The notes beneath the pieces are model-generated. The model saw nothing but the letters and a program-made list of their open reading frames with translations, made no database searches and had not been told where the DNA came from. A stretch of 64,000 bases of DNA from Naegleria gruberi (taxonomy: Eukaryota), in assembly GCA_000004985.1 (NCBI GenBank), contig GG738857.1. One strand, written 5' to 3'. Positions 5,978-58,000 of the stretch are shown one piece after another; within the stretch, counting starts at the first letter, position 1, and every line of letters starts with the position of its first letter. The translations under genes and the position numbers were made by a program.

Positions 5978-6058
5978 GCAGACTTGGCCGAGAGGTTAAG
6001 GCGCGAGACTCGAAATCTCGTGGGGAAACCTTCGTAGGTTCGAATCCTGCAGTCTGCG
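5978..6058 (+). tRNA. tRNA-Ser (anticodon CGA)
   Basis: Cloverleaf: acceptor GCAGACT/AGTCTGC, D-arm GCC-GAGAGGTTAA-GGC, anticodon stem CGAGA/TCTCG with loop CTCGAAA (anticodon CGA), long class-II variable arm, T-arm AGG-TTCGAAT-CCT, discriminator G. Confidence 0.9.
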
Positions 6059-7437: not shown

Positions 7438-7555
7438 GGCTACGGCCATATCACGATGAATGCACCTCATCCCGTCCGATTTGAGAAGTTAAGCATCGTC
7501 GAGCCACATCAGTACTGAGGTTGGAGACAACTTGGGAACCTGTGGTGCTGTAGTC
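7438..7555 (+). rRNA. 5S ribosomal RNA
   Basis: GGCTACGGCCATATCACG...CATCCCGTCCGATTTGAGAAGTTAAGC...GTACTGAGGTTGGAGACAACTTGGGAACCTGTGGTGCTGTAGTC matches conserved 5S blocks (CCCGTCCGAT, AAGTTAAGC, GGGAA...GGTGCTGTAG). Terminal helix I pairs 5' GGCTACGG with 3' CTGTAGTC. Followed directly by T5. Confidence 0.9.
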
Positions 7556-7560
7556 TTTTT
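7556..7560 (+). terminator. Pol III oligo-T terminator of the 5S gene
   Basis: TTTTT directly after the 5S 3' end. Confidence 0.7.
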
Positions 7561-8876: not shown

Positions 8877-8991
8877 AATAACCAAAGTTTAAACACCTTC
8901 TGACCTAGATGTTGGTTAATTAAGAGATTTTAGGTTCCGATTTATTAAGATATTAAGACATTAGCATATTTTTATGAGGAATGAATAAGAT

Positions 8992-9063
8992 TCCCGTGTA
9001 GTCCAATGGCTAGGATACCTGGCTTTCACCCAGGAGGTCCGGGTTCAATTCCCGGCATGGGAG
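8992..9063 (+). tRNA. tRNA-Glu (anticodon TTC)
   Basis: TCCCGTG-TA-GTCC-AATGGCTA-GGAT-A-CCTGG-CTTTCAC-CCAGG-AGGTC-CGGGT-TCAATTC-CCGGC-ATGGGA-G. Anticodon loop CTTTCAC. Typical eukaryotic tRNA-Glu 5' end TCCCNTNTGGTCTA-like. Confidence 0.9.
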
Positions 9064-9707
9064 AATCATTTTGTTTATTATTCAAAAAACTAGTCTTAAT
9101 TCGTGATAGTTCCTGTTTGAGATTTTCGACCACAAGCTTAGGTCAGAAATTATTTCCTTCCAAACAATCCGATGGGATATCCTGTTGTTTTTCTTATCTA
9201 CCATTGACGCACTTGTCCCTTCTTCAATGAAACTGAATATTTTTAAAATTCTTACTTCATTCCAATAGAAATAGTTCTCATCTTCAACGCTTAGTGTTTT
9301 TAATTAAAAAATGAACAGTTCTAACTAATTTACTAGACTTGGGCTAGTTCCATTGTTTTCGTTTGTAAAAGCAAATGTCGAGATGTGGCCACATTTGACT
9401 CCTCAAAGAAATTCTTCGCTCAACAACAAATTCCATTTAACTTTTTTCGAATCGTAAAATAAATTAACAAAATAATCATGAAGTTAACAAGTATCTAAAA
9501 TAGTTTCTGACTACCATTCTAAACAAATAACTTTTCACAAGAATCATTTTCACATCATCAAGTACCCAATTACCCAACCAAAAAAAAATCATTCAATACC
9601 CTACCTCATCCTAGTCTGGTCAATTGATACGTATTGACGTTAATTTTCACAACAACACTCATCAACGCCTGTTTTCCATCAAAACTAATCAAAACTAATT
9701 CAAACTA

Positions 9708-11516
9708 ATGAGGAAAAAGTCTTCTGCTTCATCCCACCTGTATTATTTTCCGTTGAGTTGTGTAATTCTTGATGGTGCCACTAATTTATTGACCACCATT
9801 GTGGACTCGTTCTCTCAACAAGATTCCACATCTTCAGCAGCAACTGGAAATAACCAAACTTTCAATGATACTTCATCAAATTGTAGCTCGCCATCATTAA
9901 TGACCGTTGACAGTTCAATGACATTTACAGAATATCATGATGGAAGATCGTTCACTGTTCCATGTGTTTATGAACTGAGAGATCGTTTTCAGAGGTTTTT
10001 GAAAGAAACTTCAACTAGGAGAGCTGATGATTATCTCATCAAGTTGCATAAATTAATGTTTTTAGATGAATTTTATGATCCAACAAGGAATAGAAGAAAG
10101 AGAATTGAGAATTGTGAAACATTATTCAGAATGTGTGATCAATATTTGACATTGATTCATATTCAATCAAAAAATTCACTTTCCTTTTCATTATTAGATA
10201 CATTCCCATATTTGTATAACTTTGAAGAAATGCAAAAGATTCAACCTGACAATTCCATTTTGAAAAATCATGAATATTTGGTGAAATGGTTCAGAAAACA
10301 ATCTGAAAATTTAAAGAAATATTTGGCAGAGAAAGCTAATCAAGAAGTATTGAATGGTGGAGAATCCACTTCACCAGTTTCACCAGAGGAATCAACACAT
10401 GACCTAAATGAATCGATGGCTTCTCCAACATTGAGTGGATATATTAATTCTCCAACAAAATCCATACCTGGCATTGAGGAAAAACAAGCAGAACAATCGA
10501 AACTTGCCGATTATTTGGATGAAAATGAATTGAAAATGTTAACATACATGTTGAGTTCTGAATTGGAAGATTACTTTTCACTCTTCCAAAAGTCAAATGT
10601 TAAATACATGAAAAAGTGGTTGGAAAAGAATGTAAAAAGTTTGCCAAACTATATTATTGACACAATATCCAAAAAGAGAAAGAAATATTTACATTATCAT
10701 GAAAATTACAAATTGAGAGAAGAAGATTTGAATATGAAAACAATTCTCGACTCTGATTTTGAATTCATTCAATATTTAGCAGAACATACTGAAGATTGGA
10801 CAATAATGAATTCAGATTCTCCCATCATTCAAAGTTTCAAATCAAAAGAAAACTATTCGAAAATTCCAGATATGAAAATGCAAAAGTTCATTTCAAAAAT
10901 CAATTATTCCATTGAAAATGTCTTGAAAACAACTCTTTGTAACACAGATGAAATTGGTGAAAAGGATAACATGATTGAATGCTCTGAATATCATCACTAT
11001 ACTGAAATTGATCCTTCCGTTTCGAGTAGAAAATATTCTTCAGTCATTCAAACTTCAATTATGAATTATGGATCGATATTTAAGAAACGTTCATTGGAAA
11101 ATGTAATTTCATGTAGGGCAACGTTTTGTGGAGATGAAATACAAGATGCCATTCATCTCTACAAGACATGTTCCTATGTTTCTAATAAGAATGAAGATTC
11201 TAAAGCTCCTGTAAAGATAGTTATTGTTGGAGGGAGAATCTTTTCAAGAATCGATTCGAATAGAACAAAAGTAATTGATGTACGAATGTTCAATGTTGGT
11301 GGAATGTTTTTCAATTCAGATTTTGTAGTGCACAAACTTTCGTCCAAGAAAATGCTAGACGATACTTTGGAATATTTGGAAAAATCAATGAAGAAATCAG
11401 AAAAGGAAGGTTTCCCAATGCCACAATCTGATAAGCATTTTATTTGGAAAACTTTTGCAGATTATTGTAAAGTTCATTGTAAAGTAAATGTTGAATTGAA
11501 ATGGGAGAAAAACTAG
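9708..11516 (+). CDS. Hypothetical protein, member 1 of a tandem-duplicated family
   Basis: 602-aa ORF. Shares a ~100-aa block with the next gene (LIKLHKLMFLDEFYDPTRNRRKRIENCETLFRMCDQYLTLIHIQSKNSLSFSLLDTFPYLYNFEEMQKIQPDNSILKNHEYLVKWFRKQSENLKKYL). The block is identical at protein level and nearly so at DNA level (10060-10330 vs 12160-12430). Confidence 0.6.
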   Translation: MRKKSSASSHLYYFPLSCVILDGATNLLTTIVDSFSQQDSTSSAATGNNQTFNDTSSNCSSPSLMTVDSSMTFTEYHDGRSFTVPCVYELRDRFQRFLKETSTRRADDYLIKLHKLMFLDEFYDPTRNRRKRIENCETLFRMCDQYLTLIHIQSKNSLSFSLLDTFPYLYNFEEMQKIQPDNSILKNHEYLVKWFRKQSENLKKYLAEKANQEVLNGGESTSPVSPEESTHDLNESMASPTLSGYINSPTKSIPGIEEKQAEQSKLADYLDENELKMLTYMLSSELEDYFSLFQKSNVKYMKKWLEKNVKSLPNYIIDTISKKRKKYLHYHENYKLREEDLNMKTILDSDFEFIQYLAEHTEDWTIMNSDSPIIQSFKSKENYSKIPDMKMQKFISKINYSIENVLKTTLCNTDEIGEKDNMIECSEYHHYTEIDPSVSSRKYSSVIQTSIMNYGSIFKKRSLENVISCRATFCGDEIQDAIHLYKTCSYVSNKNEDSKAPVKIVIVGGRIFSRIDSNRTKVIDVRMFNVGGMFFNSDFVVHKLSSKKMLDDTLEYLEKSMKKSEKEGFPMPQSDKHFIWKTFADYCKVHCKVNVELKWEKN

Positions 11517-13623: not shown

Positions 13624-15363
13624 TTAATCTACATTATTGAGCAACTCGTCCATCTTTCTCTTTTTTGATTGTGATTCCTCTTCGTCTTCTGATTCACTCG
13701 AATAATATTCAGCATATTCGCTATCAGAATCAAATACTTCATCAAACTCCTTAGTTTCCTCTCTGTATCGTTTTGGTTTTGGAATATCATATACTTCACT
13801 TCTTGTACCCCAATAATTAAACCAATCTTTGTATTCCCTCTCATCTAGTTCTTTTACAAGTTTTCTGAGTCTCCAATTTTGTTTCAATCTATTTGAGGCA
13901 TACTCAATGCTATAAGAATTATCCTTCACAGCCTCTGTAACAATTTCTAGATCATCCTTGAATGTATCAGATACATGCTGGAGTACAAATCCATTACCTT
14001 TAACAGTCTCCAAAATAAACTCTCTATCACTTTTCAACTCCTCTGGAATCTGCTGGAAAAGTGCTGAGTTTTTTTTGAGTGCATTCAATAGCATGTTTCT
14101 GTCAACATTACCAAAATCTTTCATTTTCTCTAAAATTAATGGAACATTTTCTCGTGATAAAAGTGTGGCCTTCTTAATGTCATCCTCTCTTTCCATAATA
14201 TATTCTATTGCATTGGTGTGAGTGGATGTTGTCATGGATAGAACTTCCCAGTCATTTTGTAAATCAGGATCAGCATACACAATAGCACTTCCATCATTGG
14301 AAACGGCTGCCAAAACAATTTCCTTATCTGCCTGAAGCTCTTCTGAGGCATATTCCAAAGATAGCCCACAATTTCTTACTGCATTCAATACAATTTCACG
14401 ATCATCTCCATAATCTTCCCAAATATAACTCAAAACTTCTCCATTTTCATTTACACATTCCAAAATGAAATCTCTATCCTGATATAGTTCATCACACGAA
14501 TATTGAATTGCATATGGAAAGGTTTTGATAGCTTCCAAAATGATTTCGTTGTCTCGGAGGAATTCATTGTTCACAAATTGAATAGCCTCTCCATTATTCT
14601 TTAGGGCAAGTAAAACCATTTCTCTGGTTTGATTCTCTGCATAAAACAACATTTCCCCACAATGTCTCACCATACGGCAGAAATCTTTTGTGTTCACATA
14701 AAATGGTTGTCGGAACTGCCAGTCATCCAATGGATTCTGACTATATTTTACAGATATTCTTTGCAGTTCGTCACTGGCATCTAGGTCCAGTTCAAAGATA
14801 TTTAGATCTGGATGCTCTTTTGTTAATCGTTTAAGAAAATCCATATTCGTTTGGTAATGCTGACCAGTCGCAAAAACTCCTGAATTCAAAGCCACGTACT
14901 TTCCCACACTTTGACTGATATAATATTCATCATTTTCCAAATAAGGATCATCAATACATGCAATTTCAAATAGCTCTGTACAAGCATGTCCACATGAATC
15001 CACAAATTGATAAGCTGATCCATCGTTCTTAATAGCTTCCTTACAAACATCATAAGTGACCAAACCATGATCTGAAACACAACTCAGAGCATACCCATTT
15101 TGTTTAACAGCTTCTAACAACAATCCATACTCTACAATTTCATCATCATTGAAATATTCCATTGCCATTCCATTGTGTTGTACAGCTTTTAAAGCAAGCT
15201 TCTCACGAAGATCATCGCTAGCCAAGTCAATCAATTCACAACAATACATGCCAGCCTTTAACATGAATTCTTCATCGGAGCCTAATATTTTCATCATTGA
15301 AGCTTCAATAGGAAAGTCAGAACAAACCGATGGATAATATTCCATGAGCCTCATGTTAATCAT
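13624..15363 (-). CDS. DUF4116 repeat-containing protein
   Basis: Repeated ~25-aa units of the form (E/D)(I/V)VLxAVxxNGxALxYAsxELxxD(K/R)E (e.g. DREIVLNAVRNCGLSLEYASEELQADKEIVLAAVSNDGSAIVYADPDLQND). Acidic C-terminus. Possible short 5' exon at 15356-15562. Confidence 0.65.
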   Translation of the reverse strand: MINMRLMEYYPSVCSDFPIEASMMKILGSDEEFMLKAGMYCCELIDLASDDLREKLALKAVQHNGMAMEYFNDDEIVEYGLLLEAVKQNGYALSCVSDHGLVTYDVCKEAIKNDGSAYQFVDSCGHACTELFEIACIDDPYLENDEYYISQSVGKYVALNSGVFATGQHYQTNMDFLKRLTKEHPDLNIFELDLDASDELQRISVKYSQNPLDDWQFRQPFYVNTKDFCRMVRHCGEMLFYAENQTREMVLLALKNNGEAIQFVNNEFLRDNEIILEAIKTFPYAIQYSCDELYQDRDFILECVNENGEVLSYIWEDYGDDREIVLNAVRNCGLSLEYASEELQADKEIVLAAVSNDGSAIVYADPDLQNDWEVLSMTTSTHTNAIEYIMEREDDIKKATLLSRENVPLILEKMKDFGNVDRNMLLNALKKNSALFQQIPEELKSDREFILETVKGNGFVLQHVSDTFKDDLEIVTEAVKDNSYSIEYASNRLKQNWRLRKLVKELDEREYKDWFNYWGTRSEVYDIPKPKRYREETKEFDEVFDSDSEYAEYYSSESEDEEESQSKKRKMDELLNNVD

Positions 15364-22621: not shown

Positions 22622-22671
22622 NNNNNNNNNNNNNNNNNNNNNNNNNNNNNNNNNNNNNNNNNNNNNNNNNN
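22622..22671. other. Assembly gap (50 N)
   Basis: Run of N. Confidence 1.
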
Positions 22672-26935: not shown

Positions 26936-28859
26936 ATGCTCAACAATAGAATCATCCCTACCACTCCCTACATTAATCCAAAACTTAATTATGGTGCTGC
27001 TGTTATAGCAAATTTACATCTTGATCAAGTTGTAGAAGTGAAGGGATCGCATTGGTATTGTGATCCATCCGTTGTAACAAAAGAAAAGATATTCGGACCT
27101 ACAACAACTCTTCAAGTTGGTGGAATGGACGCCATTGATACTGCTTTTGTTAAAAGTGTTCAAAATTCAATGTTTTTCCGATTTGATCTTGATGATGAAT
27201 TTGTAGTCAATAGAAATTATTCGCTAATTATTAATGGAAATACTTTACAAGTTGATAAGGAACTTGTTTGTAAATATTCAAGTGTATTGAAACAATTAAT
27301 TGATTCGTCTTCATCATCGGAAGTTGTGATTGAAGAGAGTCAAGGTGAATATTTACAACATGTATTAACATTTATTCATGAAGGAAAGTTAGGTGTTGAA
27401 TCATCTAAATTCTCCTCTCAACAAGATGCTGGATTGATCAATTTGAAACAATTAATAGAATTGATTAAAATAGCAGACAAGTATCAAGTTGAAAGTTTAT
27501 TAGTAGAAATTGCAAATATTGTTAATGATATGATTGCCATGATTATTATTGAGAAATGTAAAACTATTTCAAATGAGGGCAAGAAGATAGTATTTGAAAA
27601 GTGTTATGAATTTATTGGATTCAATCCAGCAAGTGTTGTTGCTGCTAAAGTTTACAATGACCAACCAATTATCACAAACTTTTTAGAAGATTTCAGGATA
27701 AAGATGCAAGAACTTCAATTAGCTTCAGAAGATATGATTATTGATTATTTATTCTCAGAAAATGGATATGATGTCAATGTTGATATTACAAACAACAAGA
27801 AGACTTTTGCTAAAATGATTGGTGCCCTAAAAACCGATGCATCATTGATTGCCTTTTCTGAATTGGATGCTGAAACATTGATGGGAATTTTGGGTAGCAA
27901 GTTTTTATCAATGAAAACTGAAGTATTATTGAGCGTTCTTGTAGGATGGTATTTAGCTGATACTAGTAGACTTGAAGATGCATGCAAATTTTTATTAGCA
28001 AACGATTGGAGTGATTGCGAAAGAGAAGCTTTTAACCTATTATTTTACAATATTTTCATATTTGGAGCTAAAAAACATGAAAATACTGAACTGTTGGACA
28101 AACTTAGAGATAAGCTCAGCCAAAATATGTTCAAGAAAGAAAATGTTATGGGTGATGAGTGGCATGTTTACAATGAAAATAGACCACCAAGATCAGCTTA
28201 TCGTAATAACTCTGGAGATTTGAGAGTTTTATTGCTTGGATTGGATGCTTCAGGAAAGACCTGCATCTTATACATGATGAAATTAGGAGAAAGAATTACA
28301 ACAGTAAGTAATTAGTCGCTTTGCAAGTTTTTGAATGTTTGTGAAGATTCCAACAATTGGTTTCAATGTGGAAACAGTGAATAGTTGTGGAAAGAATTTA
28401 ACTGTTTGGGATGTTGGTGGCCAAGATAAGATTCGCCCATTGTGGAGACACTATTATTCCAACACCTCAATTGTCATGTTTGTTGTTGATGCTTGTGACA
28501 GAGAAAGATTTGAGGATGCTTGTGATTGCATTCAAAGACTTGGATCAGAAGATGATTTGAAGGATTGTACCATTTTGGTATTTGCAAACAAGATGGATTT
28601 ACCAAATAGTGCCTCTATCAAAGAAATTGTTGAAAAATTAGAATTGAATAGATTGAAAAATCCAAATTGGATGGTTCAAGGTTGCAGTGCAACTCAAAAC
28701 ATTGGTTTAGAGGAGGGTTTCAAACTTGTAATTAAGGCTCACCAATACCAATCCCAGAATACTGCTGTTATTGAACAGTTGACCTCTCAAGAACATGAGA
28801 AGCCACCAAGAACCACTACTCACTTTGGACTCTTTGAACCTAAATTTAACACATTTTAA
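26936..28859 (+). CDS. BTB/POZ domain - Arf/Arl-family small GTPase fusion protein, 2 exons
   Basis: Exon 1 26936-28303: BTB-like (DDEFVVNRNYSLIINGNTLQVDKELVCKYSSVLKQLIDSS...YLQHVLTFIHEGKL) and Arf P-loop start LLLGLDASGKTCILYMMK. Donor gtaagt at 28304. Exon 2 28347-28859: IPTIGFNVETV, WDVGGQDKIRPLWRHYY, LVFANKMDL, CSAT (G1-G5 Arf motifs). Confidence 0.75.
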
Positions 28860-29533: not shown

Positions 29534-31756
29534 ATGGTAAAGAAAAGAATCAGCAACAAGAATGAAGAGAAGGACGACCTTCTTGATGCGAACTCCGGAG
29601 AGGATGCAATAACTTCGGAATCATCAACTATAGCATCTGCTGTTAGTAGTACAATGCAACAACAACAAGTAGACAATAACAATATGCATCATCGTAAACT
29701 TGCATTGGAGGAGGATGAATCATGCAATACTAATTCTCATCATCATGCTAATGATTATTCCAAGCAAGTAGTAGAAGATTCAGAACAAGAAGGTACTTTG
29801 AATGCACAAGGTGTGAATGATGAGACTGATCATGCACAAGTAGCAATTTCTAATAATCAAATACAGAATGAAGTGACTAGTAATGAAGTGAATATTCCTG
29901 ATGGCATGACTAGAAAGCAAAGAATTATAAATCACTTGAAAATGGGAAAGAATGAGCTGATTCAAGTTTTAAAATTATGTTGGCCTGCTGTTGTGATGAA
30001 TGTTTGTTTTCAATTACTTGGTTTGGAAAGTTTGTCTTTTATTGGACATATTACTTTGGAGGATAATGAAATTCCAGGCATTACTAAGGATAAAGTTGGT
30101 GAATTGTATATGGCAGCAGCATCTTTGGGAAATTCATTCTTTTTCTGTATGTTTATTTAACATTTTCATTTTAATTTTCAACTATTTCTAAAATAGGTCT
30201 TGGATTTGTAATTGTTGGATTAATTCATGGTCAAGATACACTCGTTTCACAGGCGGTTGGTGCTAAAAATTTCATTAGAGCTGGTCACGTTTTAGCACGA
30301 TCCCTACTTACCATTCTATTGTGTTCAATTCCAATTTGTGTAGCATTGTGTTTTGCTAATTATTCTCTCTATTGGATGAATCAGGAAAAAGTTTTGGTTG
30401 ATCTAGTTGGAAATTATTTAAGAATTTTAACACCTGGTATGATTCCATTTGTGGTTTGTGAGGCATTGTCTCTGTATTTAATTGCTCAGAATATTTTAAT
30501 GCCAAATGTCATTATTTGGATTATTTCTGTAATTATTAATTTTGGATTGAATTGGTTATTAGTTTTTGGATTTGGATTTGATTCTCTTGGATTTGTAGGA
30601 GCTCCAGTAGCATTAACCATTACAAGATATATCATGTTGGTCATGTACATTGTATTTATTTATTTCAAAGGTTATATGAAAGAAACATGGAAAGGATTTA
30701 TTGATATTAAGGCTGTTTTTAAATGGGATGGATTTAAGGAATATTTGAAATTGGCTCTTCCAGGTTCTGTCATGTTAGCAGTAAGTAATTATTCTATTCT
30801 CAAAACAAATTTGAAACATATTGATATGAAGGCTGAGGTTTGGGGATTTGAGTTATCAACAATTACTTCCTCCTTCTTAGGACCAACTGCATTGGCATCC
30901 CATAGTATTGTTCTTAATATTTGTGCCTTGACATTTATGGTTCCTTTATCAATCGCTACTGCAACAGCCATCAAAATTGGACAATATATGGGTGGTAGAG
31001 AACCAATCAAAGCCAAATATACATCTTATGCATCAATGGTCTTCTCAGGATTATTCATGTTCTGTTCTGGAACTACATTGGCCATATGTAGAGAGTGGAT
31101 TCCACAAATTTACACACAAGATGCTGATATTATTTACAATGCTTCCATTATCTTCCCATTGTGTGCTCTCTTCCAATTCTTTGATGGTGTTCAAGCAATT
31201 GCTGGAGCTACCATTAGAGGTGTCGGCAAGCAAATTGTTGGTGCTGCCAGTACTCTCATTGCTTATTACGTAAGTTGTTCACACAATACTATTACTAATT
31301 CCTGCAAATTTAAAGATTATTGGTTTACCTATTGGAGCTGTATTAGCCTTTGTTGCTGGTTGGGGACTTGTTGGTATTTGGTCTGGATTAGCCATTGCTC
31401 TCTTCTCTGTATTTGTTGGCATGTTATTGTTCATTCGTTTTAGAATTAATTGGGAGAAGGAAGCAGAGGTTGCCTACAATAGAGCAACAACAAAAACATC
31501 AGAAGGATCTTCATCAGTAGAACTGGAAGCAACAGCAGCAGATGAATCAACAACAAGCAACAAGATGATGACAACACAAGTAGAATTGGAGGAAGGAAGA
31601 GTGGATGAAGAAAACAAGGCTGTTGTTATTGATGGTCAAGCAGAAGATTCTAGTGTATCGCCATCTTTGGAAGAAGATGAGGACTATTCAAGAGTGAATA
31701 GCAGAGTAAATTTACTGCAGAGCACGAGCACAGTTGCGCTGGAGGATGAAGAATAA
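29534..31756 (+). CDS. MATE (multidrug and toxic compound extrusion) family transporter, 4 exons
   Basis: Exons ~29534-30146, 30197-30780, 30832-31269, 31316-31756. Donors gtatgt, gtaagt, gtaagt. Phase checked. N-terminal hydrophilic extension, then LKLCWPAVVMNVCFQLLGLESLSFIGH, GLIHGQDTLVSQAVGAKNF, VMLA|AEVWGFELSTI. 12 predicted TM helices. Acidic C-terminal tail. Confidence 0.8.
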
Positions 31757-31967
31757 CATTTTTATTTGATTTTAAAACTAATTTTTAATATTTTAATTGT
31801 TCAAGTAAGATCGAATGGTTCATTCCCAAGAACGAAAAATTGTGTGATAAAAGAGAAAATTTATACATTTATAAATTAATCGTTAACCTTGTTCAAAAGT
31901 TGTCATTCTCCCCCGCAGTTCTATTGTAGTTTTTTGGCGCCAATACAAATACAAATATTTCAAAAAA

Positions 31968-33826
31968 ATGGCTTCTCTTTCTGCTTCAGCCTCATCAAAA
32001 AGTTTAACGGGAAACAACAAGCAAAGTTCCGAAGATCATGTCTGGATAAATGGTTTGTATTGTATTGTATAAGAATATGAATTAATTGTTCTTCTTTAGC
32101 TTGGTATGATCCTCTTGCTTCCGTTACCTCTCTTTCACAATGTATGATGTTTTCTGATATTAATGGTGATGGAGACTACAAACTTGTGGTAGCTACTGCA
32201 AGTAAGAATCCCTTAGAAAGTAAAAAGACAAAACAAGCTCACAGATTGAGAGTCTATAAAGGTACTGGTATTATCAGCGAAAATGTTTTAATGGAGGAAC
32301 CTATTGCACTCGCTTCCTACTACACTGACTACTCATCACCTAAAAGACCTATGATTGTCGTCGCAAGTAGTAATCACATTTACTATTACAAAAACCTACA
32401 ACCATTCTACAAGTTTACTATGCCGGCAAAGACTACAGAAGAAAAGGAAGTGGAAATTTGGCAATATTTAAAGGAATCTAAATATGATGCCAAGACTGGT
32501 TACGCTGAATTAGCAAGACTTAGAGATCATAATATTACTCTTAGTACAAGGAGTTACGAACTTCTTTCTCTTACATCAAATGAAGATATTAAGGCGTTCA
32601 TTGATACCAGGAAAAATTTTGCCTTGGAGAGTCCAAATAATATTACAACTCTATCAATTCTTCCAAAAGACAGAGAAGGAGATGACGCAATTGGATGTCC
32701 AGTTGTCGGTACAGAGAGCGGAATAGTTTTTATCTTAACTCCCCAAGGATCACAAATCATGAAAGCTGTTCAATTGCCTTCAGCACCTGTAAAATTTTGT
32801 ATTGCTGGTAACTATGATAGTGATTATAGAATTACAGCAGCATGTAGAAATGGAAATGTATATACCATTAAAAATGGAGAAGTGAGTGGCGTGGTTATTG
32901 AGTTGGAATCTCATCCAGTTTCTATTGTAAAAATAGACAAAACTTTTGCTATTGGCCTTATGAACAATAGTATTCATTGCTACAATACAAGAGGAAAGAA
33001 ACAATACTCTATCTATTTACCATCTAATATTAAGGACATGGAAGTTCTTGAAATGAGAGGCCAACGTAGTGTGAAATGCATAATAGTAGCTATGGAGAAC
33101 AAGGAATTGAGAATTTATAATGGTAAAAATTTGGTAAATAGGATTGAATTATTTGAAAATATTGCCAGTCTCAGATATGGAATATACGGATCTGAGGTTA
33201 ATAGTTTAATCATTTCTTATAGAAATGGCGGTCTTGATTTTAAAGTTATCTCAAGAAAGGCAAGTTTGGAGAGCAAATCCAAAACTGGTCCACCACCAGA
33301 ACAGGAAGAGCCTTTGGATTTACCCTCCAAGACTTTCCTTTATTTGGAACAAACAAAGAGAGAAGTGGATTATTGCTCTGAAATGCATAATGTTTTCCAA
33401 AAAGATTTGGCAAGAATTAGACTTCACACTGCGAGGGCATATGTTAAAATTTTGACAGATGGCCAAGGTCCATTATCTTACACTTCCGGATCCTCTATTC
33501 GCTTGACGGCCCAAGTGCAAGGACTAGGTCCAAAGTTTAAGATTAATATTGAGGTTCAGAATACTGGCAAAAAGTCAATTTCCCAGTTATTCATTCTATT
33601 TGTTTTTAATGAAGATCTTTACTCGGTGGAGGGTGATGCAAGAAGATTGCTTCTTCCTCCTCTTCTTCCAGGACCAGTATACAGATTTAGTAAGGCAGTA
33701 ACCATGCTTGATCCTTTAGTTGCCCCAGAAACAATGAAATTATATGTTTGTAGTAAGGAGAGTCAAACACCTGTAATAACTGCTGTTGTAAATATGCCAC
33801 CAACAGAAATGATTGAATTAGTATAA
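31968..33826 (+). CDS. BBS1: Bardet-Biedl syndrome 1 protein (BBS1, BBSome subunit) homologue, 2 exons
   Basis: Exon 1 31968-32052 (MASLSASASS...HVWIN, donor ggtttgt), exon 2 32100-33826. Collinear with metazoan BBS1: HVWINAWYDP vs WLDAHYDP, DGDYKLVV, YYYKNLQPFYKFTMP vs YVYKNLRPYFKFSLP, AACRNGNVYTIKNGE vs AACRNGNIYILRRD, GPPPEQE, HNVFQKDLARIRLHTARAYVKIL vs [40 protein letters not shown] vs QGLGPTFKLTLHLQNTS. Confidence 0.85.
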
Positions 33827-34274: not shown

Positions 34275-35500
34275 TTGATAAAAATTCTACCATGGCATTC
34301 CTGTGTCAAAAGTGAATTGACGAGTCAACAAAAAATGCGTAAATCAACATCTGAAAAAACTCTTCCAGAAACAATCAACATAAAAAACCCATCCGAAGAT
34401 GAAAAATCCACTCTCCAACAACAAGATTGGTTTTGTGAATTAGTTTCAACCTACACAGAGCACAAGATAAACGCACTTGAGAAGGAAAATCAAAACCTAA
34501 TCCAAAAGTTGTTGGCTCTAACAGTTGATCAACGCTATATTAAATTTCTTGAATCTATTCCTTCATTGATGCAAAAACAACAAGAGCACAACAAACAAGG
34601 AAACTCTGACAATGAGTACAAAAAGTTAAACGAGAAGCTTGATGAAGTAATTGATGATTATGAGGACGTCAAGAGGAAATTAAAAAAAGCAGAAGAGAAT
34701 GCAAAAAAACCAAAGATGCTTTTGTTGAACAGCACTATTATAATGAAGAGAATATTAAAGAAATCACCAGGAAAGAAGAGAAGGTACGTGAAGAATTGGC
34801 TACCTTGAATGGAAAGTACCTTTATGAAAAGGAATCGTTCTTGAAACAAGTGTCCGAGTTAACAAAAGAAAGAGATCAACTAAATGATCAAATTTCAATT
34901 TACAAAACTCGAAATGATCCTGCCTTGCTGATGAATGACTTTTCTGATAACACAGTCAAAAAGATACATGATGAATATGTCACTTTGAAATCACACGATT
35001 TGAATTCTTTTGTGGGAAGAGTAGTTGAAGAACATTCATTAAGTGAAGATCAGGAATTTGATTTTGATTTAAAAATTGTTGCATTTGCATTCAAAACAGT
35101 CCGTAAACTCATTGAAGAAACCTATTCTGAAATGAATTTCGAACTAATTGGCAAGAAACTTACAAATGAAGAATCAGAAAGAAACCGCCTTATTGAAACC
35201 CTCGTCCAGACAATTGCAAAAATGGAAGAAATTGGAAAGAACAAGAAATTACAACAAGCTGCCAGAGAATTTATAACCAAACTCGTGAAATTCTATTGTA
35301 ACATGTTTCTCATTGATAAGAAGCTTGAATTGGTTTGGGCTTCAACTGGATCTCTCTACAATCCTGAATGGTACGATTCAAGAAATGCAACCAGTAACAT
35401 TGTAGTCACTAATGTTTTCAAACCTGCTCTCATGGACACATTCACCAAAACAGTCTACGAAAAAGGAATTGTTGAAACTACCCAAAAAAGGAAAAAATAA
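34275..35500 (+). CDS. Coiled-coil protein, member A of a lineage-specific family with conserved C-terminal domain; contains an apparent 1-nt frameshift
   Basis: ORFs 34275-34808 and 34796-35500. The good protein sequence switches frame inside an A7 run at ~34703-34709 (…KAEENAKK | DAFVEQHYYNEENIKEITRKEEKVREELATL…). C-terminal domain RNDPALLMNDFSDNTVKKIHDEY...LVWASTGSLYNPEWYDSRNAT...KPALMDTF is shared with the genes at 38801-40422 and 40567-41778. Confidence 0.55.
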
Positions 35501-35522: not shown

Positions 35523-38500
35523 TTATATTAAAACTCTCTTGTATGTAATTAAATATTCAGGATAGCATTGATTCCTATCATAGATAATATATTCATTGTA
35601 GGTGTGTTGTGATACCGACTTGGATCTTCCAATAACACTGTCATAAACTCTTCCATTTGAGTTTTCAATGACAGGTGGTCTTCTTTCATTTCTCATCTTT
35701 TCCCTTGTTTTGAAAACCATCTGACCTAACAGAACTCTACTGAGAAATATAAAACACTCACCATCCTTATTCGAAACACAATATTGATCACTCTTACTAC
35801 AGCAATCAGCAAAGTATATTCCAGCTCCAAACAAACCACTCAAAGCACTCAATCTTTCATCAAAGCCGTGTTCTGAAATGATTGACTTGACTACTTCTGT
35901 TGTTCCATGCCATAAATAAACTTCATTCACATTGGAATCTAATTCACACATTTCGTCAACAAAATCATTTCTAATTGGTATATCCATTACCTTCTTTTTA
36001 TCCTTATAGGAAATTAGGTGTTTCTTCTTTGATAGATACATTTCATAAAGTGATAAATTCTCAATTCTTTCCACTTTTAGAACTTGTAACTTGTTATATG
36101 GAAATGAATCTTTTTCATGGTTTCGTTTCTTTCCTAATGTAATTGTTACACATGTCTTATCCAATAAATCTTGAATATCCTCTTTTAATTCAGCGGTAAC
36201 ATCTATAATTGACATGTTATTTTGATTTGATTTCCAATAGGAAGGCTTTTGTTTCGTTTCCTTTCTTCTTGTCCCACGAAAGAATTCATGTCTTAATAAC
36301 TCAGATGCAGATAAAGTACAAATTTCTTCACGAATATTAATTGAGTCCATTAGCGTTTTCAAAAGAGATGAATATTCATCGAGTCGTTCCATTGACATGA
36401 TGTCAATTACCATTTTCACGAAACAAAACATTTCTTTCTGGAATGGTAATTTGTTTCCCTTTTCCTCTATTTTCACAACATTATCAAATCCATCCAATAT
36501 TAATTTAACTTGTTCATCTTCAATAATTTTCACATACACATTCGCAGCTCTAATATTTCCATGAACAAATGAATAGGTATGAAAATGATGAATGGCTGAA
36601 AGAATCTGAAACCAAATATCTTCCCATCCTGATCTAATGGATGAAAAATCTTTCAATGTTCCAATTGAGTAATATGGCATAACAATACAAAGTTTATCTT
36701 GACAAAGATAAAATCCAATTAATTCTGCAATATTTGAATGTTTGATTTTCTCTAGAATTTCAACTTGTTCAATTACCATTTCAATTTTATCCAATGAATA
36801 TTGTTTAACACGATAGAAAATATTCGAATTCTTATCAACTGCCTCAATAAGCATATAATTCAGAAATGCAGTTTCACTAATTGTAGTCAATTCCAAAGTG
36901 CTTACATCTTGAATTCCTATAATTTCTGATAGTAAATCATAGAATCCTGATCGATAGAGTGTAATTGATTTGTTTCGAATATCATTTCTGTTAATTTGAA
37001 GAGTTTCGAGTTCAGTTTCTTGTTCCATAATTTTTAGACAGGGCGCAGTTGATGTTGAGTTGTTTGTTTCCCACAATTTTTTCTCAATTTCAATTGATCT
37101 TTTGCGTGCTTCAATGTTCTCACTCATTAATTTGTAATTAATTCCATATTTAGAAATATCAAATTTAGAAATTATTGTTAAAGTTAATTGCATATTTTTA
37201 AATTCATTACAGATGGTAGTAATATTATTGATAAAATCAAGGCAATTATTTTTCATATCATCAATAAAGTAGCAATATCCTTTCAATTTCTTTTTCAATA
37301 AATGATACAATTCCAAATTTGGATTTTCTTTCAATAAGGAAAATAATTTTGAAATGGAATCTCCAATATCATTTGTATCATTGCTTATTTCTGAAAATTC
37401 AAGTGTTGAAATATTACTTGAAAAATTTGAAAGAAAATTTGCAACTCCACTCAATTGCTTATTACATGTATTAATCCATTTCTCCAAATTAGTCGAATAT
37501 TCTTCAAATGTTAATTCCAATTCTTCATAATTCGATATTTCATTACATGGAATTTCTTCTCCACCATTCAAAAATTCATTAATTTCTTTAGAAATTTCAC
37601 TCAAACTCTTTACAAATTCAATAAGAAAATTTCCATAATCACTTTTCTTAATTTGATTATTCATTGATTCATGGATTTGAAATTTGCTTCGAAATTCAAT
37701 TAAATCTTGAGGATTTTGTGATGAATAAATCGATTTTGAATTAATTTGGATAGGGCTGAGAAGATTCTTAATATCTGTAAACTTTTTCATGTCATATTCG
37801 TTAATTATGATATTTCTAATAAGTCTATCAGTGGTAAATCTTATAGTTTCCAATTGATTTTTCCTATTTTTGTATTCGAAACCTAATTGGGAAAGCTCTG
37901 TAAATATTGATGCAAAATGAATGAATTTAATTTCTATTGGAGATGTGCTAGTAGATGCTTGACTCACTTCTACATTAATTTCTTTTGTTTCCACATTAGT
38001 CTTATTTCTTTTTTCAGATTTCATTTCCTTTTGAATCGTTTTTATGGATTTCCCGCCACATTTCAATGCTATTGATATTTTGATATTAGGATGTTCTAAT
38101 AATAATTTTCACAATTTCAATTTTATCTCTTTCGCAAGCAACTTGCAAAGGTGTTTTAACCTTCCAAAATTGGTAAAATAAAAACTTGCAAATTAATACT
38201 TACCATCTTTAATCTTAAAACTCAATTAATTAAATATCAAACTTACATTCTGAATAATTCAATAAATGTATACTCATCATTAACAAGTTACTTACACCCT
38301 TATTAACATCCAATTCATTTGATTCCAATAATAATTTCACAATTTCAAGATGACCATCATAACATGCAATAAACAAACAAGTTTGTTCTGATTCTACACC
38401 ACAAAATGTCTTGAATAACAAGCTAATAAGTATTCATTTTGCTTCAAATCATACTTACTTCATTGACATTGACAAGTGACAGTAAATATTTGACAATCTC

Positions 38501-53247: not shown

Positions 53248-54992
53248 ATGTCAGGTTTTTCATCACAATCTATTCAAGCATCACTTGTTAGACCATCCAA
53301 ATATAGACATTTAAATGGATTTGAAACTAAAAGTGAGAGATATGAAAATATTAATGTTGGTTATGGTCAAAAATTAAGTAATACATTAAAAACCAATGGT
53401 TCAATCTATGCATTACCATTTAATGTAACAGGTGGTACTTTATCATTTAAATATTTAAATGATTATGGTAGATGGGATGAAAAATTACAAAATTATGGAA
53501 TTATTAAGGCTCACAAGGGAAGATTATCAGATTTTGATATTTCCCCTTTTAGAAATAGAGATCATTTAGTAACTGTTTCTAATTCTGATAATATTATTAG
53601 ATATTGGAAATTACCTACAAATAATAATGATAATGATAATAATAGCAATGATATTTCTTCTTCTAATATTACTTCTACTAATACTTCCAATATAAATGGT
53701 AATAATACTATATATAGAACCTATGAAGAAATGGATTGTGATTTGGAATTAAATGATACAAATAATACAAAATCAACTATTAGTAGAATATCATTTAATC
53801 CACTTGTTGATAATTCACTTGTTAGTATTCAAGGAGATTTAATCCATTTTTGGGATGTTGAAAAAAAGAAAATTTTAAATTCAATTCAAAATTTACCAAA
53901 TCCATCAATTTCTAGTAAAACATTACCAACAGTTGAAAGTTTAGGATGGAATGAATATGGTAATTTATTTATATGTGGTACAAATGATCGTTCCATTAGA
54001 ATTTATGATATTAGATTATCTTCCAATTATAGTAATAATAATAATAATAATAATAATCAATCTAATAATCAACAAATATGTATAACTGAAGGACATTCAA
54101 GTATGAAACCATTTCAAACATTATATTGTGAAAATATGTATATATGTAGTGTTGGATTTTCTAAAAATGGAGGTAGAGAATTAGCCATGTATGATATTAG
54201 AAAAGATTTGAAATGTTTACAAAGAATTTCCATTGATAATGGTGGTTCAGTTTTAACACCATTTTATGATTCAGATATTAAATTACTATATTTAGTAGGT
54301 AGAGGAGATGGTAATATTAGATTTTATGAATTAGAAGGTGGTATTATGCATTATTTAAATGATTATAATTGTCAATCTACATCTGCATCTGTTGATTGGT
54401 TACCAAAATGGAAATTAAATGTTAATAATTTTGAATTGGCTAAATTTTTAAGATTAACAAATGAAAAAACAATTGAAACTCTTTCAATGAGAGTTTCTAG
54501 AAAATCAAATATTGAACAATATTTTCAAGAAGATATATTTCCAGATACTTGGAATGGTCAACCTATTTATAATAATACTAATCAATGGTTAAATACTATT
54601 ATTAATAATAATACTACTTCTATTAATAATAATACTATACAAAGTAATATTAATAATAGTAATGGTAATGGTAATGAAAATTTGAATGAAAATGAATTAT
54701 TACAAACTAGACCAACCATGTCATTAAAACCATCTGATAAAATATCTATCTATGATGTACCTATTAGTGAAGGTGGTAAAATTAGACCATCCACTACTAA
54801 TTTAAGTAAATTACATTCATCATCATCTTTAAATAGTATTGAAAATACTCCAACTACTACATTAGATACCCCAACTACTATTACAAATTATAATACAAAT
54901 GAACAAGTTGATGATGAATTTAAAGATTTAAATGAAAATCAACAATTTGATGACAATGAAGAAGAAGAAGAAGAATTAATTACCATTAATAC

Positions 54993-55023
<31 letters not shown>

Positions 55024-58000
55024 GAACATAATCATAATAATTTTAATGATTTAAATGATATAGATTCATTAATGTCACCAACAGAAGCAACTTCCAAATC
55101 CATTTCCATTGGATTAGTTTCTAGTTTAGGTAAAAATGTAGCACTTGCATCAGCTCATATTCCATGGTATAAAAGAATTACAATGGGAATGGGTTATTAT
55201 TTAGGAATGGCAATGTTTTTAATATTTAAATTTACATTCATTTCAATACCTGTTTGGGTTTATCGTAAATCTACTGGTTACACTCCTCCACCTATTAAGG
55301 AACGTTTCGAACAAGTACCTGTTATTAAGGTTATTAAGAAACCTTCAAGAAAAGTTTCATCAAATATCAATTCTTCTACAAGTGTTAAACGTAATATTGT
55401 TGGTGGTGGTGCTAATACTAATAATAATAATACTGATAATAATAATATAACACCTACTACACCAAATGATTATATTAAATCATCAGTATCTAATACATCA
55501 TTATCATTAACTCCACAAACTCCAAGTGGTAGCGGCAATAATTTAATCATTTCAGATCCACTTGCAAGTGAATCAAGTCGATTACTATCACGTGAATATG
55601 GTAGAATTATTATGGAAGAATATATTGGTAAATTAACTAAAGAAGATATATTTCCTAAAAGAGCACATGATAAAGATACCAATCTAAAACAAGTTCTTGA
55701 AATTGATGTAGTTGACTTGAAAAAAGGTCTCACTCATGTACTAATTTGGGTAAAAGGACGTAAAAAATCGAGAGCAACACTTGCACCACTTTATTGGACA
55801 AGTTTAAATCATAATGATTGTTTCATTTTGGATTGTGGTAAAATTTGTTACATTTACAATGGACAATATTCTAACAAATTATGTAGAGCTAAAGCATTAG
55901 ATATTTCACAAATGATTAAATATAAGGAAAGAGGTGGTGATTGTCAAGTTGTAATTATTGATGGTATTGATTATTCTAATAATGGAAATAATTCTAATAA
56001 TAATTCTAATAACAATGACATGACACCATTATATAAAAAACAAGTATTACAATTTTGGAAAGAATTAGGATTAACAAGTGAAAATGAATTTTGTGAATTA
56101 TTAAATATTCACTTTCCTAAAAAGGAAGATTCTAGTAGTAGTAGTAATAATAATGTATTAAACAGATTAAAATTAACAGATAAATCTAAATTTACATCAA
56201 AAGATGAATTAAATGATGATTTATATCAACAATTTAATGATTTAGGTCAAAGATTATATAAATTAAATTCAGAAATCTTTGAAGAACTTCCACTAAAAAT
56301 AGAATTAAATGAAACACAAGATGAATACATAGAAAGAATATCACCATATATGTTAAGTGTTATAAAATTAAATCAAATACCAGGTGGTGAAATTGTAAAT
56401 TTAAAAGAATTAGAAAATTTATTAAATAATGAAAAGAATTTAATTGATCCAAATAAGGTATCAGAAATTACACAACCATCACATCATGTTTTACATTCTG
56501 ATCAATGTTACATTTTTGAAAGTTTATTTACAAATGAAGTTTTCTTTTGGAGTGGAAAACAAAGTAATTTAAATATTAGAAAATGGGGAATTGCTATTGC
56601 TAAAAAATTAGCACAATATAGATCTTTAAATAATAATCCATTTTCATTGAAAAATCCAATTTTACAACGTTTTAAATCTATTTTAAATAATTCTATTAAT
56701 ATTACTATAAATGGAAGTAATTCTATAAATGGAAATCAATTACCTAATAATAGAAAATATTTATCATCCATTACACGTGTTATAGAAGAAGGTGAACATT
56801 CTATTTATAAACAAAAATTTAGTGATTATCCAGGAATGTTAATGATTCAAACACAATCACAAGAATCACGTGGAAATGTTGCAGAAAAAAAGAAACAATC
56901 AAAAATTAATTTTTTAGAATTATTAAAATCTAAAAATAATTTAAAAGAAGAATTAAAATCTAATTCACAAAAACAATTTATTGATCCAACTTTAGTAACT
57001 ACCATATATAGTAGTAAAATTAGAATGTGGAGAGTGAGTGATTTTCAAAAAATACCATATCAACATTTAGGTCATTTCTTTACAGGTGATGCATTTATTA
57101 TTTTATTTACCTATACAAAAATAGAAGGTGGTAAATCTTTCCATAAATTATTCTTTTGGCAAGGAAGAGATATTAAAAAGAAAGATAAAGGAACATCTGC
57201 ATATAAAACTGTTGAAATTAATGAAATGATTGATGAAGGTGTTGTAGAAAATCAAATTAGAGTTGTACAAGATAAGGAACCTAAACTATTTTTAGATTTA
57301 TTTAAATTTAACCCAAATAGTATGGAAGAGAGTACTACTATTGAAAATGATAAACATTATAAGAAGGTACCTTATTTTATTCATAAGGGTAAATATAGAC
57401 CTTCTGTTTTGGAATCTTTTGAAAAGGCTAACAAATTATCTTCTATTATTGGTAATATTTCTAATAATAATAATAATGGAAATATTAATCCAAAATCATC
57501 ACCATTACCAAAATTAAATATTTCTAATAATACAAATGATAATAATAATACAAATAATACCACTACAACTACACCAACAACACCTACAATTTCAAATGAT
57601 GAAGAAATGAATCTTGCACCTGTTAAATTATTTACTTCCATAAATGGAAATTTAGATGAAAATGAAAAATTTTCACCTCAAATTTTACAATTCCAAACAG
57701 AAATGATTGAAAGAATAATTTCTAAAAATATAAAATTAGAATATTTAAAATCCTATGATTTTAGAAATGGAATTTTATGTGAAACTGATGATTTACATCC
57801 AAATTATTTAAATCCATTTAATTTAATAATTTTTTCAAATTTAAATTTTAATGTTTATTTAAATAGAATTGAACTAAATAAGGAAATTGAACAAGATGAT
57901 TTAAAAACTATTATTTATTATGGAAAATATTGTAAAGAATCTGATAAGAAATTTATTGAAAATAATGTTTTAAATTTATTTAATAATAATAATATAATTA

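What the first reader, a model, noticed from the sequence alone, without database searches (positions are those of the whole stretch)
31968..33826. BBS1 orthologue: ciliated organism despite Dictyostelium-like genome style
Strong collinear similarity to metazoan BBS1 across ~560 aa. BBSome genes are retained only in organisms that build cilia or flagella and are absent from dictyostelids. The rest of the window (AT-richness, poly-N proteins, villidin-like gene, short introns) looks dictyostelid-like. The source is therefore probably a flagellate-capable amoebozoan or another AT-rich protist, which is useful for taxonomic placement.
Basis: partly seen in the sequence, partly recalled or inferred. 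Interest (0 to 1): 0.5.

Follow-up and report, generated by a model that had tools for sequence, protein, structure and literature searches.

The report
Naegleria gruberi BBS1 ciliary gene
This is the ordinary, already catalogued BBS1 gene (a subunit of the BBSome, the cilium's membrane-protein transport complex) of the well-known amoeboflagellate Naegleria gruberi; the only new point is that the public gene model misses its short first exon.

Summary
Window 31968-33826 (+) encodes a 603-aa protein from two exons split by one 47-nt GT..AG intron. It is an unambiguous BBS1 orthologue:
- Pfam BBS1 scores 2e-84 and GAE_BBS1 scores 1e-29.
- It aligns end to end with human BBS1 (6xt9_A, 9e-113).
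- A BBS1 family profile that includes it scores PDB BBS1 at 5e-211 and the paralogue BBS2 at 0.22.
- The AlphaFold model superposes on Chlamydomonas BBS1N with TM 0.95-0.96.
- It keeps 106 of 113 strongly conserved BBS1 columns.

The source is Naegleria gruberi (Heterolobosea, Discoba). Three window proteins match N. gruberi RefSeq entries exactly, all on one 573-kb scaffold. BBS1 itself is XP_002679440.1 / NAEGRDRAFT_65179, named only "predicted protein".

Its first taxonomic guess, Amoebozoa, is wrong, and nothing here is surprising, because Naegleria is the textbook amoeba-to-flagellate organism.

One minor correction follows. The deposited 559-aa model starts at an internal Met and omits exon 1. 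It therefore lacks 44 residues, including the conserved N-terminal β-strand of the propeller. The intron position and phase are conserved in N. fowleri and Willaertia magna.

Verdict: real, ordinary and already known. Low interest.

The parts
31757..31967 (+). 5' intergenic region, presumed to hold the promoter and 5' UTR of BBS1 (inferred only)
   Evidence: It lies between the stop of the upstream ORF (31421-31756, the last part of the MatE-family gene) and the BBS1 ATG. An in-frame TAA sits at 31884. No regulatory element was identified, and the bacterial-type promoter scan gave chance-level counts.
31968..32052 (+). BBS1 exon 1 (85 nt; codons 1-28 plus the first base of codon 29). It is absent from the deposited model XP_002679440.1.
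   Evidence: Splicing to exon 2 gives ...HVWIN|AWYDPLA..., which matches N. fowleri (NHVWINAWYDPLAT) and Willaertia (NIWINAWYDPLAG). W26 is invariant across 74 BBS1 sequences.
32053..32099 (+). Intron 1: 47 nt, GT..AG, phase 1, 21% GC
   Evidence: If the intron is retained, the frame hits a stop after 34 codons. An intron at the identical codon position and phase is present in N. fowleri (L001 6058-6141) and Willaertia magna (L002 6052-6098), both AATG|GT...AG|CT.
32100..33826 (+). BBS1 exon 2 (last two bases of codon 29 through codon 603, plus the TAA stop at 33824-33826)
   Evidence: The deposited 559-aa model begins inside this exon at Met45 (32147).
32043..33250 (+). N-terminal seven-bladed β-propeller (residues 26-412; the coordinates span the intron). 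It includes the N-terminal β-strand 26-32.
   Evidence: Pfam BBS1 PF14779 covers residues 26-286 at 2.2e-84. The AlphaFold2 model has pLDDT mostly above 90 in this region, with strands E26-32 through E407-412. Foldseek to Chlamydomonas BBS1N 4v0m/4v0n/4v0o gives TMt 0.95-0.96 and rmsd 1.4-3.0 Å. In BBSome propellers the N-terminal β1 strand is the 'velcro' closure of blade 7, and ARL6 binds blades 1 and 7 (PMC7018513).
32441..32611 (+). Helical insertion within the propeller (residues 143-199), a feature specific to BBS1
   Evidence: Helices H143-153, H159-171, H178-185 and H189-199 appear in the model. Among the four BBSome propellers only BBS1 has a large helical insertion (bovine residues 110-195; PMC7018513).
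33326..33460 (+). Long α-helix preceding the GAE domain (residues 438-482)
   Evidence: H438-482 in the model. This is the densest block of invariant residues: R449 E450 M457 H458 F461 Q462 L465 R469 L470. [quoted passage not shown]
33497..33808 (+). C-terminal GAE (γ-adaptin-ear-like) β-sandwich domain (residues 495-598)
   Evidence: Pfam GAE_BBS1 PF23304 covers residues 495-598 at 1.1e-29, spanning profile positions 1-103 of 105. β-strands run from 495 to 592 in the model. BBS1-GAE heterodimerises with BBS9-GAE in the solved BBSome (PMC7018513).

Best explanation
Window 31968-33826 (+) is the single-intron gene for BBS1 of Naegleria gruberi strain NEG-M (locus NAEGRDRAFT_65179).

Shown here:
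- It encodes a 603-aa protein with the full BBS1 architecture: a seven-bladed β-propeller with a BBS1-specific helical insertion, a long helix, and a C-terminal GAE domain.
- It is inherited vertically within Heterolobosea/Discoba.

Inferred from characterised orthologues:
- The protein is a subunit of the octameric BBSome.
- Blades 1 and 7 of its propeller bind GTP-loaded ARL6/BBS3, which recruits the complex to the ciliary membrane.
- Its helix and GAE domain pair with BBS9.
- The assembled BBSome rides intraflagellar-transport trains as an adaptor that sorts and removes membrane proteins from the flagellum.
- In Naegleria it would be needed only in the transient flagellate stage. It would presumably be switched on with the other flagellar genes during the amoeba-to-flagellate differentiation.

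The deposited gene model is truncated at the N-terminus. The true start is the ATG at 31968, and exon 1 supplies the propeller's conserved N-terminal strand.
For: Family:
- Pfam BBS1 scores 283 bits and GAE_BBS1 103 bits, against a cut-off of 27 for each.
- The protein aligns over its full length with human BBS1 (9e-113), bovine BBS1 (2.5e-107) and Chlamydomonas BBS1 (2e-82).
- All named hits in the 5.8-billion-protein search are BBS1.

BBS1 rather than a paralogue:
- A profile of 74 BBS1 sequences including this protein hits PDB BBS1 at 5e-211 and BBS2 at only 0.22.
- Foldseek gives BBS1 4e-46, against BBS9, BBS2 and BBS7 at 1.6e-18 to 1e-14.

Fold: mean pLDDT 87.3; TMt 0.95-0.96 to CrBBS1N.

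Conservation: 106 of 113 columns that are ≥90% conserved in 73 other BBS1 sequences are retained, and the rest are mostly conservative changes.

Organism:
- 100% identity to XP_002679440.1.
- Two more ORFs match XP_002679446.1 and XP_002679435.1 exactly, all on one 573,072-bp N. gruberi contig.
- The ranking of hits follows taxonomy: N. fowleri 78%, Willaertia 66%, Acrasis 50%, Percolomonas 49%, then Diplonema and Eutreptiella.

Gene model: an intron of conserved position and phase in three genera, a conserved N-terminal motif, and a predicted β-strand at 26-32.

Mechanism: PMC10356136 and PMC7018513.

Naegleria builds flagella de novo with transcriptional induction of cilia genes: PMC4819266 and PMC12183034.
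Against: - Nothing contradicts the identification.
- No expression or splicing data for this locus could be retrieved, so exon 1 rests on comparative evidence only.
- The other BBSome subunits, ARL6 and the IFT genes of N. gruberi were not searched here, because no tool holds the assembly.
- I found no sentence in the held literature that names Naegleria BBS1. The papers I recall as reporting it (Fritz-Laylin 2010 Cell and J Cell Sci; van Dam 2013) are not held.
- ARL6 binding, BBSome incorporation and flagellar localisation are all inferred by homology.
- Neighbouring genes are not shared with the N. fowleri or Willaertia BBS1 loci, so synteny adds no support.
Confidence: 0.97

Rival explanations
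1. The protein is a different β-propeller protein (a BBS2/BBS7/BBS9 paralogue or a generic WD40 protein) that only resembles BBS1.
For: BBS1, BBS2, BBS7 and BBS9 share a β-propeller + GAE architecture and a common origin (PMC10356136). There is a weak sub-threshold Pfam hit to BBS2_Mid (23.8 bits against a cut-off of 27). Foldseek also lists BBS9, BBS2 and BBS7.
Against: BBS1 matches are better by more than 200 orders of magnitude in sequence, using the BBS1 family profile that includes this protein (5e-211 against 0.22). They are better by about 28 orders in structure. Both BBS1-specific Pfam domains are full length. The BBS1-only helical insertion is present. There is no platform domain and no extra length as in BBS2/7/9. 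Named hits are BBS1.
Confidence: 0.01
2. The locus is a decaying or non-functional relic, not a working ciliary gene.
For: Naegleria lives mostly as an amoeba without flagella. No expression data were retrieved for this locus. The deposited model is truncated.
Against: The reading frame is intact at 603 codons with canonical splice sites. 106 of 113 conserved columns are kept. It is 78% identical to N. fowleri and 66% to Willaertia over the full length, with a conserved intron. The predicted fold is confident. The organism does build flagella. The truncation is an annotation artefact, not a lesion in the DNA.
Confidence: 0.02
3. The source is a flagellate-capable amoebozoan, such as a Physarum- or Mastigamoeba-like organism.
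For: Flagellated amoebozoans do keep an almost complete BBSome (Mastigamoeba balamuthi, PMC8136499). The window has a villidin-like gene and poly-N runs reminiscent of Dictyostelium.
Against: Three window proteins are identical to N. gruberi RefSeq proteins on one scaffold. N. gruberi is in Discoba/Heterolobosea. The next-best BBS1 hits are all heteroloboseans, then euglenozoans.
Confidence: 0.003

Closest known systems
Deposited N. gruberi model XP_002679440.1 / EFC46696.1 / UniProt D2V8J4 (NAEGRDRAFT_65179, 'predicted protein', 559 aa)
   Same: Same locus, and 100% identical over residues 45-603. Precomputed Pfam BBS1 + GAE_BBS1.
   Different: The deposited model starts at the internal Met45 (window 32147). 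It omits exon 1 and the first 44 residues, including the conserved W26/A29/A35/C43 and the predicted N-terminal propeller strand. The 603-aa sequence is not present as an exact entry in the 15-billion-protein collection.
Human and bovine BBS1 in solved BBSome structures (6xt9_A; 6vbu_1, 6vbv, 6vnw, 6voa)
   Same: Collinear over the whole length at about 35% identity, E 9e-113 and 2.5e-107. Same domain order: propeller with helical insertion, long helix, GAE.
   Different: The N-terminal tail is unrelated and of low confidence (residues 1-21). The position equivalent to the human disease residue M390 is Ile in Naegleria (alignment). Function in Naegleria is untested. By my recollection, metazoan-specific partners such as PCM1 and centriolar satellites are not expected.
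Chlamydomonas reinhardtii BBS1 N-terminal propeller bound to ARL6 (4v0m, 4v0n, 4v0o)
   Same: Sequence E 2e-82. The predicted propeller superposes with TMt 0.95-0.96 and rmsd 1.4-3.0 Å at 31-32% identity. It is also from a unicellular biflagellate with motile flagella.
   Different: ARL6-contact residues were not compared one by one, because the primary paper is not held. Binding was not tested.
Heterolobosean orthologues: N. fowleri FDP41_004653 (P0002), Willaertia magna ABK040_012946 (P0003), Acrasis kona BBS1 (P0005), Percolomonas (P0007/P0008)
   Same: 78%, 66%, 50% and 49% identity over the full length. The first intron sits at the same codon and phase in N. fowleri and Willaertia.
   Different: N. 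gruberi lacks the second intron (after ..NTR|GKK..) found in both relatives, and the two further introns of Willaertia. Flanking genes differ.
BBSome paralogues BBS2, BBS7, BBS9
   Same: β-propeller + helix + GAE build and common ancestry. Recognisable by fold, with Foldseek E from 1e-18 to 1e-14.
   Different: Only 9-11% identity. The profile E-value is 0.22 for BBS2 and nothing for BBS7 or BBS9. They lack the BBS1 helical insertion and, per the domain figure legend of PMC10356136, carry coiled-coil and platform domains, which this protein lacks.

Membership tests
BBS1 (BBSome subunit 1) | N-terminal BBS1 domain (Pfam PF14779) above the curated threshold, matched full length | tested here: met
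   283.4 bits against a cut-off of 27; residues 26-286 match profile positions 1-254 of 254.
BBS1 (BBSome subunit 1) | C-terminal BBS1-type GAE domain (PF23304) | tested here: met
   103.2 bits against a cut-off of 27; residues 495-598 match profile positions 1-103 of 105. A β-sandwich is predicted.
BBS1 (BBSome subunit 1) | End-to-end collinear similarity to experimentally characterised BBS1 proteins | tested here: met
   Human 6xt9_A: query 6-599 against chain 4-589, E 9.3e-113. Bovine: 2.5e-107. Chlamydomonas: 2.1e-82.
BBS1 (BBSome subunit 1) | Closer to BBS1 than to the paralogues BBS2, BBS7 and BBS9 | tested here: met
   Profile search (74 BBS1 sequences including this protein): BBS1 5.4e-211, BBS2 0.22, BBS7 and BBS9 not found. 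Foldseek: BBS1 4e-46, BBS9/2/7 ≤1.6e-18. No explicit phylogenetic tree was built.
BBS1 (BBSome subunit 1) | Seven-bladed propeller closed by an N-terminal strand, with a large helical insertion found only in BBS1 | tested here: met
   The AF2 model (pLDDT 87.3) has strand 26-32, helices at 143-199, and TMt 0.95-0.96 to CrBBS1N. The feature is defined in PMC7018513.
BBS1 (BBSome subunit 1) | Retention of family-wide conserved residues | tested here: met
   All 27 invariant columns are kept, and 106 of 113 columns that are ≥90% conserved.
BBS1 (BBSome subunit 1) | Binds ARL6/BBS3-GTP through propeller blades 1 and 7 | not testable with these tools
   Inferred from homology to 4v0m. Needs a binding assay or a complex model with Naegleria ARL6.
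BBS1 (BBSome subunit 1) | Co-occurs and assembles with BBS2/4/5/7/8/9/18 in the same organism | not tested
   The N. gruberi assembly cannot be searched with these tools, and no other BBS or IFT gene lies in this window. I recall published phylogenetic profiles showing these genes in Naegleria, but those papers are not held.
BBS1 (BBSome subunit 1) | Host organism builds cilia or flagella | tested here: met
   The host is identified as N. gruberi. Its flagellate form has two basal bodies and two flagella (PMC4819266).
   Exact matches to three N. gruberi proteins on one scaffold. The lineage is Discoba; Heterolobosea.

The most novel reading that the evidence does not exclude
The most novel reading that is not excluded: Naegleria BBS1, and the BBSome, also act outside the flagellum. 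An example would be membrane-protein sorting in the amoeboid stage, which has no cilium, basal body or cytoplasmic microtubules. Under that reading the gene would be expressed constitutively rather than only during differentiation. Separately, and much more likely but minor: the public model of this gene lacks its first exon, so any analysis or construct based on XP_002679440.1 would be missing the propeller's N-terminal closing strand.
Probability: 0.05. Interest if true: 0.45.

Novelty: already known. Interest (0 to 1): 0.07.

Why it matters
It matters little beyond housekeeping.

- The gene fixes the window's origin as Naegleria gruberi NEG-M, an amoeboflagellate of Heterolobosea.
- The one usable by-product is a corrected gene model of 603 aa instead of 559. 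It restores the conserved N-terminal strand of the ARL6-binding propeller. This matters for anyone who expresses or models the Naegleria protein, or uses it in alignments.

Tried and rejected
- Looking up the deposited protein on its contig failed: no gene record was found. The organism was instead fixed by exact-sequence look-ups.
- I searched the held literature for an explicit statement that Naegleria has BBS1 or a BBSome. Only species lists and reference-list mentions turned up.
- The key papers are not held: Fritz-Laylin 2010 J Cell Sci, van Dam 2013, Mourão 2014 and Kennard 2025.
- No supplementary expression table was available.
- I considered searching for other BBSome subunits with human queries. 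I rejected this because only the best 120 hits are listed, and metazoan clusters would crowd out Naegleria.
- The bacterial-type promoter and terminator scan of the locus gave chance-level counts and is irrelevant to a eukaryote.
- Rfam and tRNA scans found nothing inside the BBS1 locus.
- Minus-strand ORFs inside the gene are all 74 aa or shorter, with no support.
- Pfam scans of 31 large ORFs found no other recognisable ciliary gene in the window.
- The Arf-family gene at 26936-28859 was briefly considered as a possible ARL6/BBS3 neighbour. I set it aside because it carries a ~425-aa N-terminal extension, which, as I recall, ARL6 lacks. It was not tested further.
- Synteny with the N. fowleri and Willaertia BBS1 loci: none seen.

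Full report
**Observation.** The stretch 31968-33826 on the + strand begins with an ATG and ends with TAA. The mechanical ORF list shows a 560-aa ORF at 32144-33826. The reading frame that opens at 31968 runs into a stop after 34 codons unless a 47-nt GT..AG intron (32053-32099, 21% GC) is removed. Splicing 31968-32052 to 32100-33826 gives 1812 nt and 603 codons with one terminal stop. An in-frame TAA lies 84 nt upstream of the ATG, with no intervening ATG.

**What the protein is.**
- Pfam gives the BBS1 domain (PF14779, 283 bits, full profile, residues 26-286) and the BBS1-type GAE domain (PF23304, 103 bits, residues 495-598). Both are far above the 27-bit cut-offs.
- Against all PDB chains, the only matches at E ≤ 0.001 are BBS1: human 6xt9_A (9.3e-113, query 6-599 against chain 4-589), bovine 6vbu_1 (2.5e-107) and Chlamydomonas 4v0m_B (2.1e-82).
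- In the 5.8-billion-protein search, 183 proteins score E ≤ 1e-20, and every named one among the 120 listed is BBS1.
- A 74-sequence BBS1 profile that includes this protein hits PDB BBS1 at 5.4e-211. The paralogue BBS2 appears only at E = 0.22, and BBS7 and BBS9 not at all.
- An AlphaFold2 model built on that alignment is confident (mean pLDDT 87.3). It shows a β-propeller (strands 26-412) interrupted by a helical insertion (143-199), a long helix (438-482) and a C-terminal β-sandwich (495-592).
- Foldseek ranks BBS1 chains first (4e-46). The propeller superposes on Chlamydomonas BBS1N at TMt 0.95-0.96 and rmsd 1.4-3.0 Å. BBS9, BBS2 and BBS7 follow about 28 orders of magnitude behind.
- The helical insertion is the feature that distinguishes the BBS1 propeller from those of BBS2/7/9 (PMC7018513).
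- The protein keeps all 27 invariant columns and 106 of the 113 columns that are at least 90% conserved among 73 other BBS1 sequences. The seven differences are mostly conservative: I/L, V/A, S/G, Y/F, S/R, N/R and R/K.

This is BBS1, not a look-alike propeller.

**Whose gene it is.** The top database hit is 100% identical: 'predicted protein [Naegleria gruberi]', XP_002679440.1 / EFC46696.1 / D2V8J4, locus NAEGRDRAFT_65179, on a 573,072-bp contig. Two other window ORFs match N. gruberi proteins on the same contig exactly. These are 53248-58908 (XP_002679446.1, 'coronin') and 9708-11516 (XP_002679435.1). The window is therefore a piece of the N. gruberi NEG-M assembly. NCBI taxonomy places the species in Discoba; Heterolobosea. 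The remaining hits fall off in taxonomic order: N. fowleri 78%, Willaertia magna 66%, Acrasis kona 50%, Percolomonas 49%, then the euglenozoans Diplonema and Eutreptiella, then other eukaryotes. That order is what vertical inheritance predicts.

**Gene model.** The deposited protein has 559 aa and starts 'MFSDINGDG...', which is Met45 of the spliced product. All other BBS1 sequences have, before that point, a conserved segment (W26, A29, A35 and C43 in this numbering) that the deposited model lacks. The spliced product reads HVWIN|AWYDPLASVTSLSQC, against N. fowleri HVWINAWYDPLATVTAMSQC. Mapping the N. fowleri and Willaertia proteins back onto their loci shows an intron at exactly this codon and phase in both. 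The junction is AATG|GT...AG|CT, at L001 6058-6141 and L002 6052-6098, matching the window's AATG|GT...AG|CT.

The model predicts residues 26-32 as a β-strand with good confidence. In BBSome propellers the N-terminal strand is the 'velcro' closure of blade 7, and blades 1 and 7 form the ARL6-binding site (PMC7018513). I therefore regard the 603-aa two-exon model as correct and the deposited one as an annotation truncation. The 603-aa sequence is not present as an exact entry in the large protein collection. This rests on comparative and structural inference, because I could not retrieve transcript evidence. N. gruberi lacks the second intron shared by N. fowleri and Willaertia.

**How it most likely works (inferred by homology, not shown here).** BBS1 is one of eight BBSome subunits.
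- Its propeller is the effector surface for membrane-bound ARL6-GTP.
- Its helical insertion contacts BBS4.
- Its helix and GAE domain pair with those of BBS9.
- The complex acts with the IFT machinery to traffic ciliary membrane proteins, notably their retrograde removal (PMC10356136; PMC7018513).

Naegleria amoebae have no basal bodies or flagella. They assemble two of each de novo during a rapid differentiation that depends on new transcription of cilia genes (PMC4819266; PMC12183034). The expectation is that this gene is induced with that programme. RFX, FOXJ1 and XAP5 are absent from Naegleria, so the regulator is unknown. I identified no regulatory element in the 211-bp upstream spacer.

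- Gene call: right.
- Inference that the organism can build flagella: right.
- 'Villidin-like' gene: right. The 1886-aa ORF has a coronin N-terminus, WD40, gelsolin repeats and a villin headpiece.
- Poly-N runs: present.
- Preferred placement in Amoebozoa: wrong. Flagellated amoebozoans such as Mastigamoeba do keep a BBSome (PMC8136499), so the guess was reasonable, but the exact matches settle it as Naegleria.
- 'Dictyostelium-like' resemblance: loose. The window is 30.8% GC and the BBS1 coding sequence 36%.
- Absence of BBSome genes from dictyostelids: this is established knowledge as I recall it, and I did not test it.
It is answered indirectly by the organism's identity.

**Novelty and interest.** The locus is in RefSeq and UniProt with BBS1 Pfam domains, from a model organism famous for making flagella. 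Comparative surveys of ciliary genes routinely include N. gruberi (for example the species lists). A specialist would not be surprised. The only addition is the corrected first exon. I rate it 'already known', with interest about 0.07.

**Surroundings.**
- Upstream on the same strand is a multi-exon MatE-family transporter gene ending at 31756.
- Downstream, at 34275-35500, is a lysine- and glutamate-rich gene of unknown function, probably coiled-coil, with only a sub-threshold MIEAP match.
- Nothing is encoded on the opposite strand of BBS1 beyond chance ORFs of 74 aa or shorter, and no Rfam family matches there.
- No other recognisable ciliary gene lies in the 64 kb.

Noticed in passing
window 7438-7556 (+); 5978-6058 (+); 8991-9064 (+): A 5S rRNA gene (105 bits, full-length model) lies between tRNA-Ser(CGA) and tRNA-Glu(UUC), among protein-coding genes rather than in an rDNA unit.
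   Followed up: no
window 53248-58908 (+): An intronless 1886-aa ORF matches XP_002679446.1 ('coronin') exactly. It combines a coronin N-terminus (DUF1899), WD40, gelsolin repeats and a villin headpiece, plus poly-N, poly-E, poly-S and poly-T runs. This is the architecture of Dictyostelium villidin, found here in a heterolobosean. Whether it is homologous to villidin or a convergent fusion was not examined.
   Followed up: partly
window 35523-38066 (-): An 847-aa ORF combines a protein-kinase domain (residues ~409-523) with a C-terminal PARP catalytic domain (653-843), an unusual fusion.
   Followed up: no
window 58976-61670 (-): A PIF1-like helicase is split over three ORFs: the PIF1 N-terminal ATPase in 61020-61670, the Pif1 2B domain in 59742-60503, and the helicase C-terminus plus an RNase H1 N-terminal (Cauli_VI) domain in 58976-59677. 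It sits in the AT-richest part of the window (GC 22-27%). It could be a multi-exon gene or a degraded mobile-element helicase.
   Followed up: partly
window 22622-22671 and 62862-63022: Runs of N (50 and 161 bases) mark assembly gaps. The second interrupts an ORF (62782-63675) with a SIMPL/DUF541 domain, a family that I recall as mostly bacterial.
   Followed up: no
window 26936-28859 (+): An Arf-family GTPase domain sits at the C-terminus of a protein with a ~425-aa N-terminal extension. The gene is split by one short intron near 28303-28351. As I recall, ARL6 has no such extension, so this is unlikely to be ARL6/BBS3, but its subfamily was not determined.
   Followed up: partly
window 13624-15363 (-) and 1554-3597 (-): There is a 579-aa protein made of DUF4116 repeats (6 matched stretches, 1.3e-84). 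There is also a phosphoinositide-specific phospholipase C (EF-hand, X, Y and then a C2 domain) split over two ORFs.
   Followed up: no
L001 7036-7153; L002 6993-7037, 7200-7244, 7284-7321: N. fowleri and Willaertia magna BBS1 share a second intron (after ..NTR/QTR|GKK..) that N. gruberi lacks, and Willaertia has two more. Intron loss or gain has therefore occurred within one gene across three related genera. The flanking genes differ in all three.
   Followed up: partly
protein P0005 (Acrasis kona BBS1, 618 aa): The aggregative 'slime-mould' heterolobosean Acrasis kona has a full-length, well-conserved BBS1 (50% identity, both Pfam domains). As far as I recall, no flagellate stage is known for Acrasis. 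If so, an intact BBSome gene would hint at a cryptic flagellate stage or another role.
   Followed up: no
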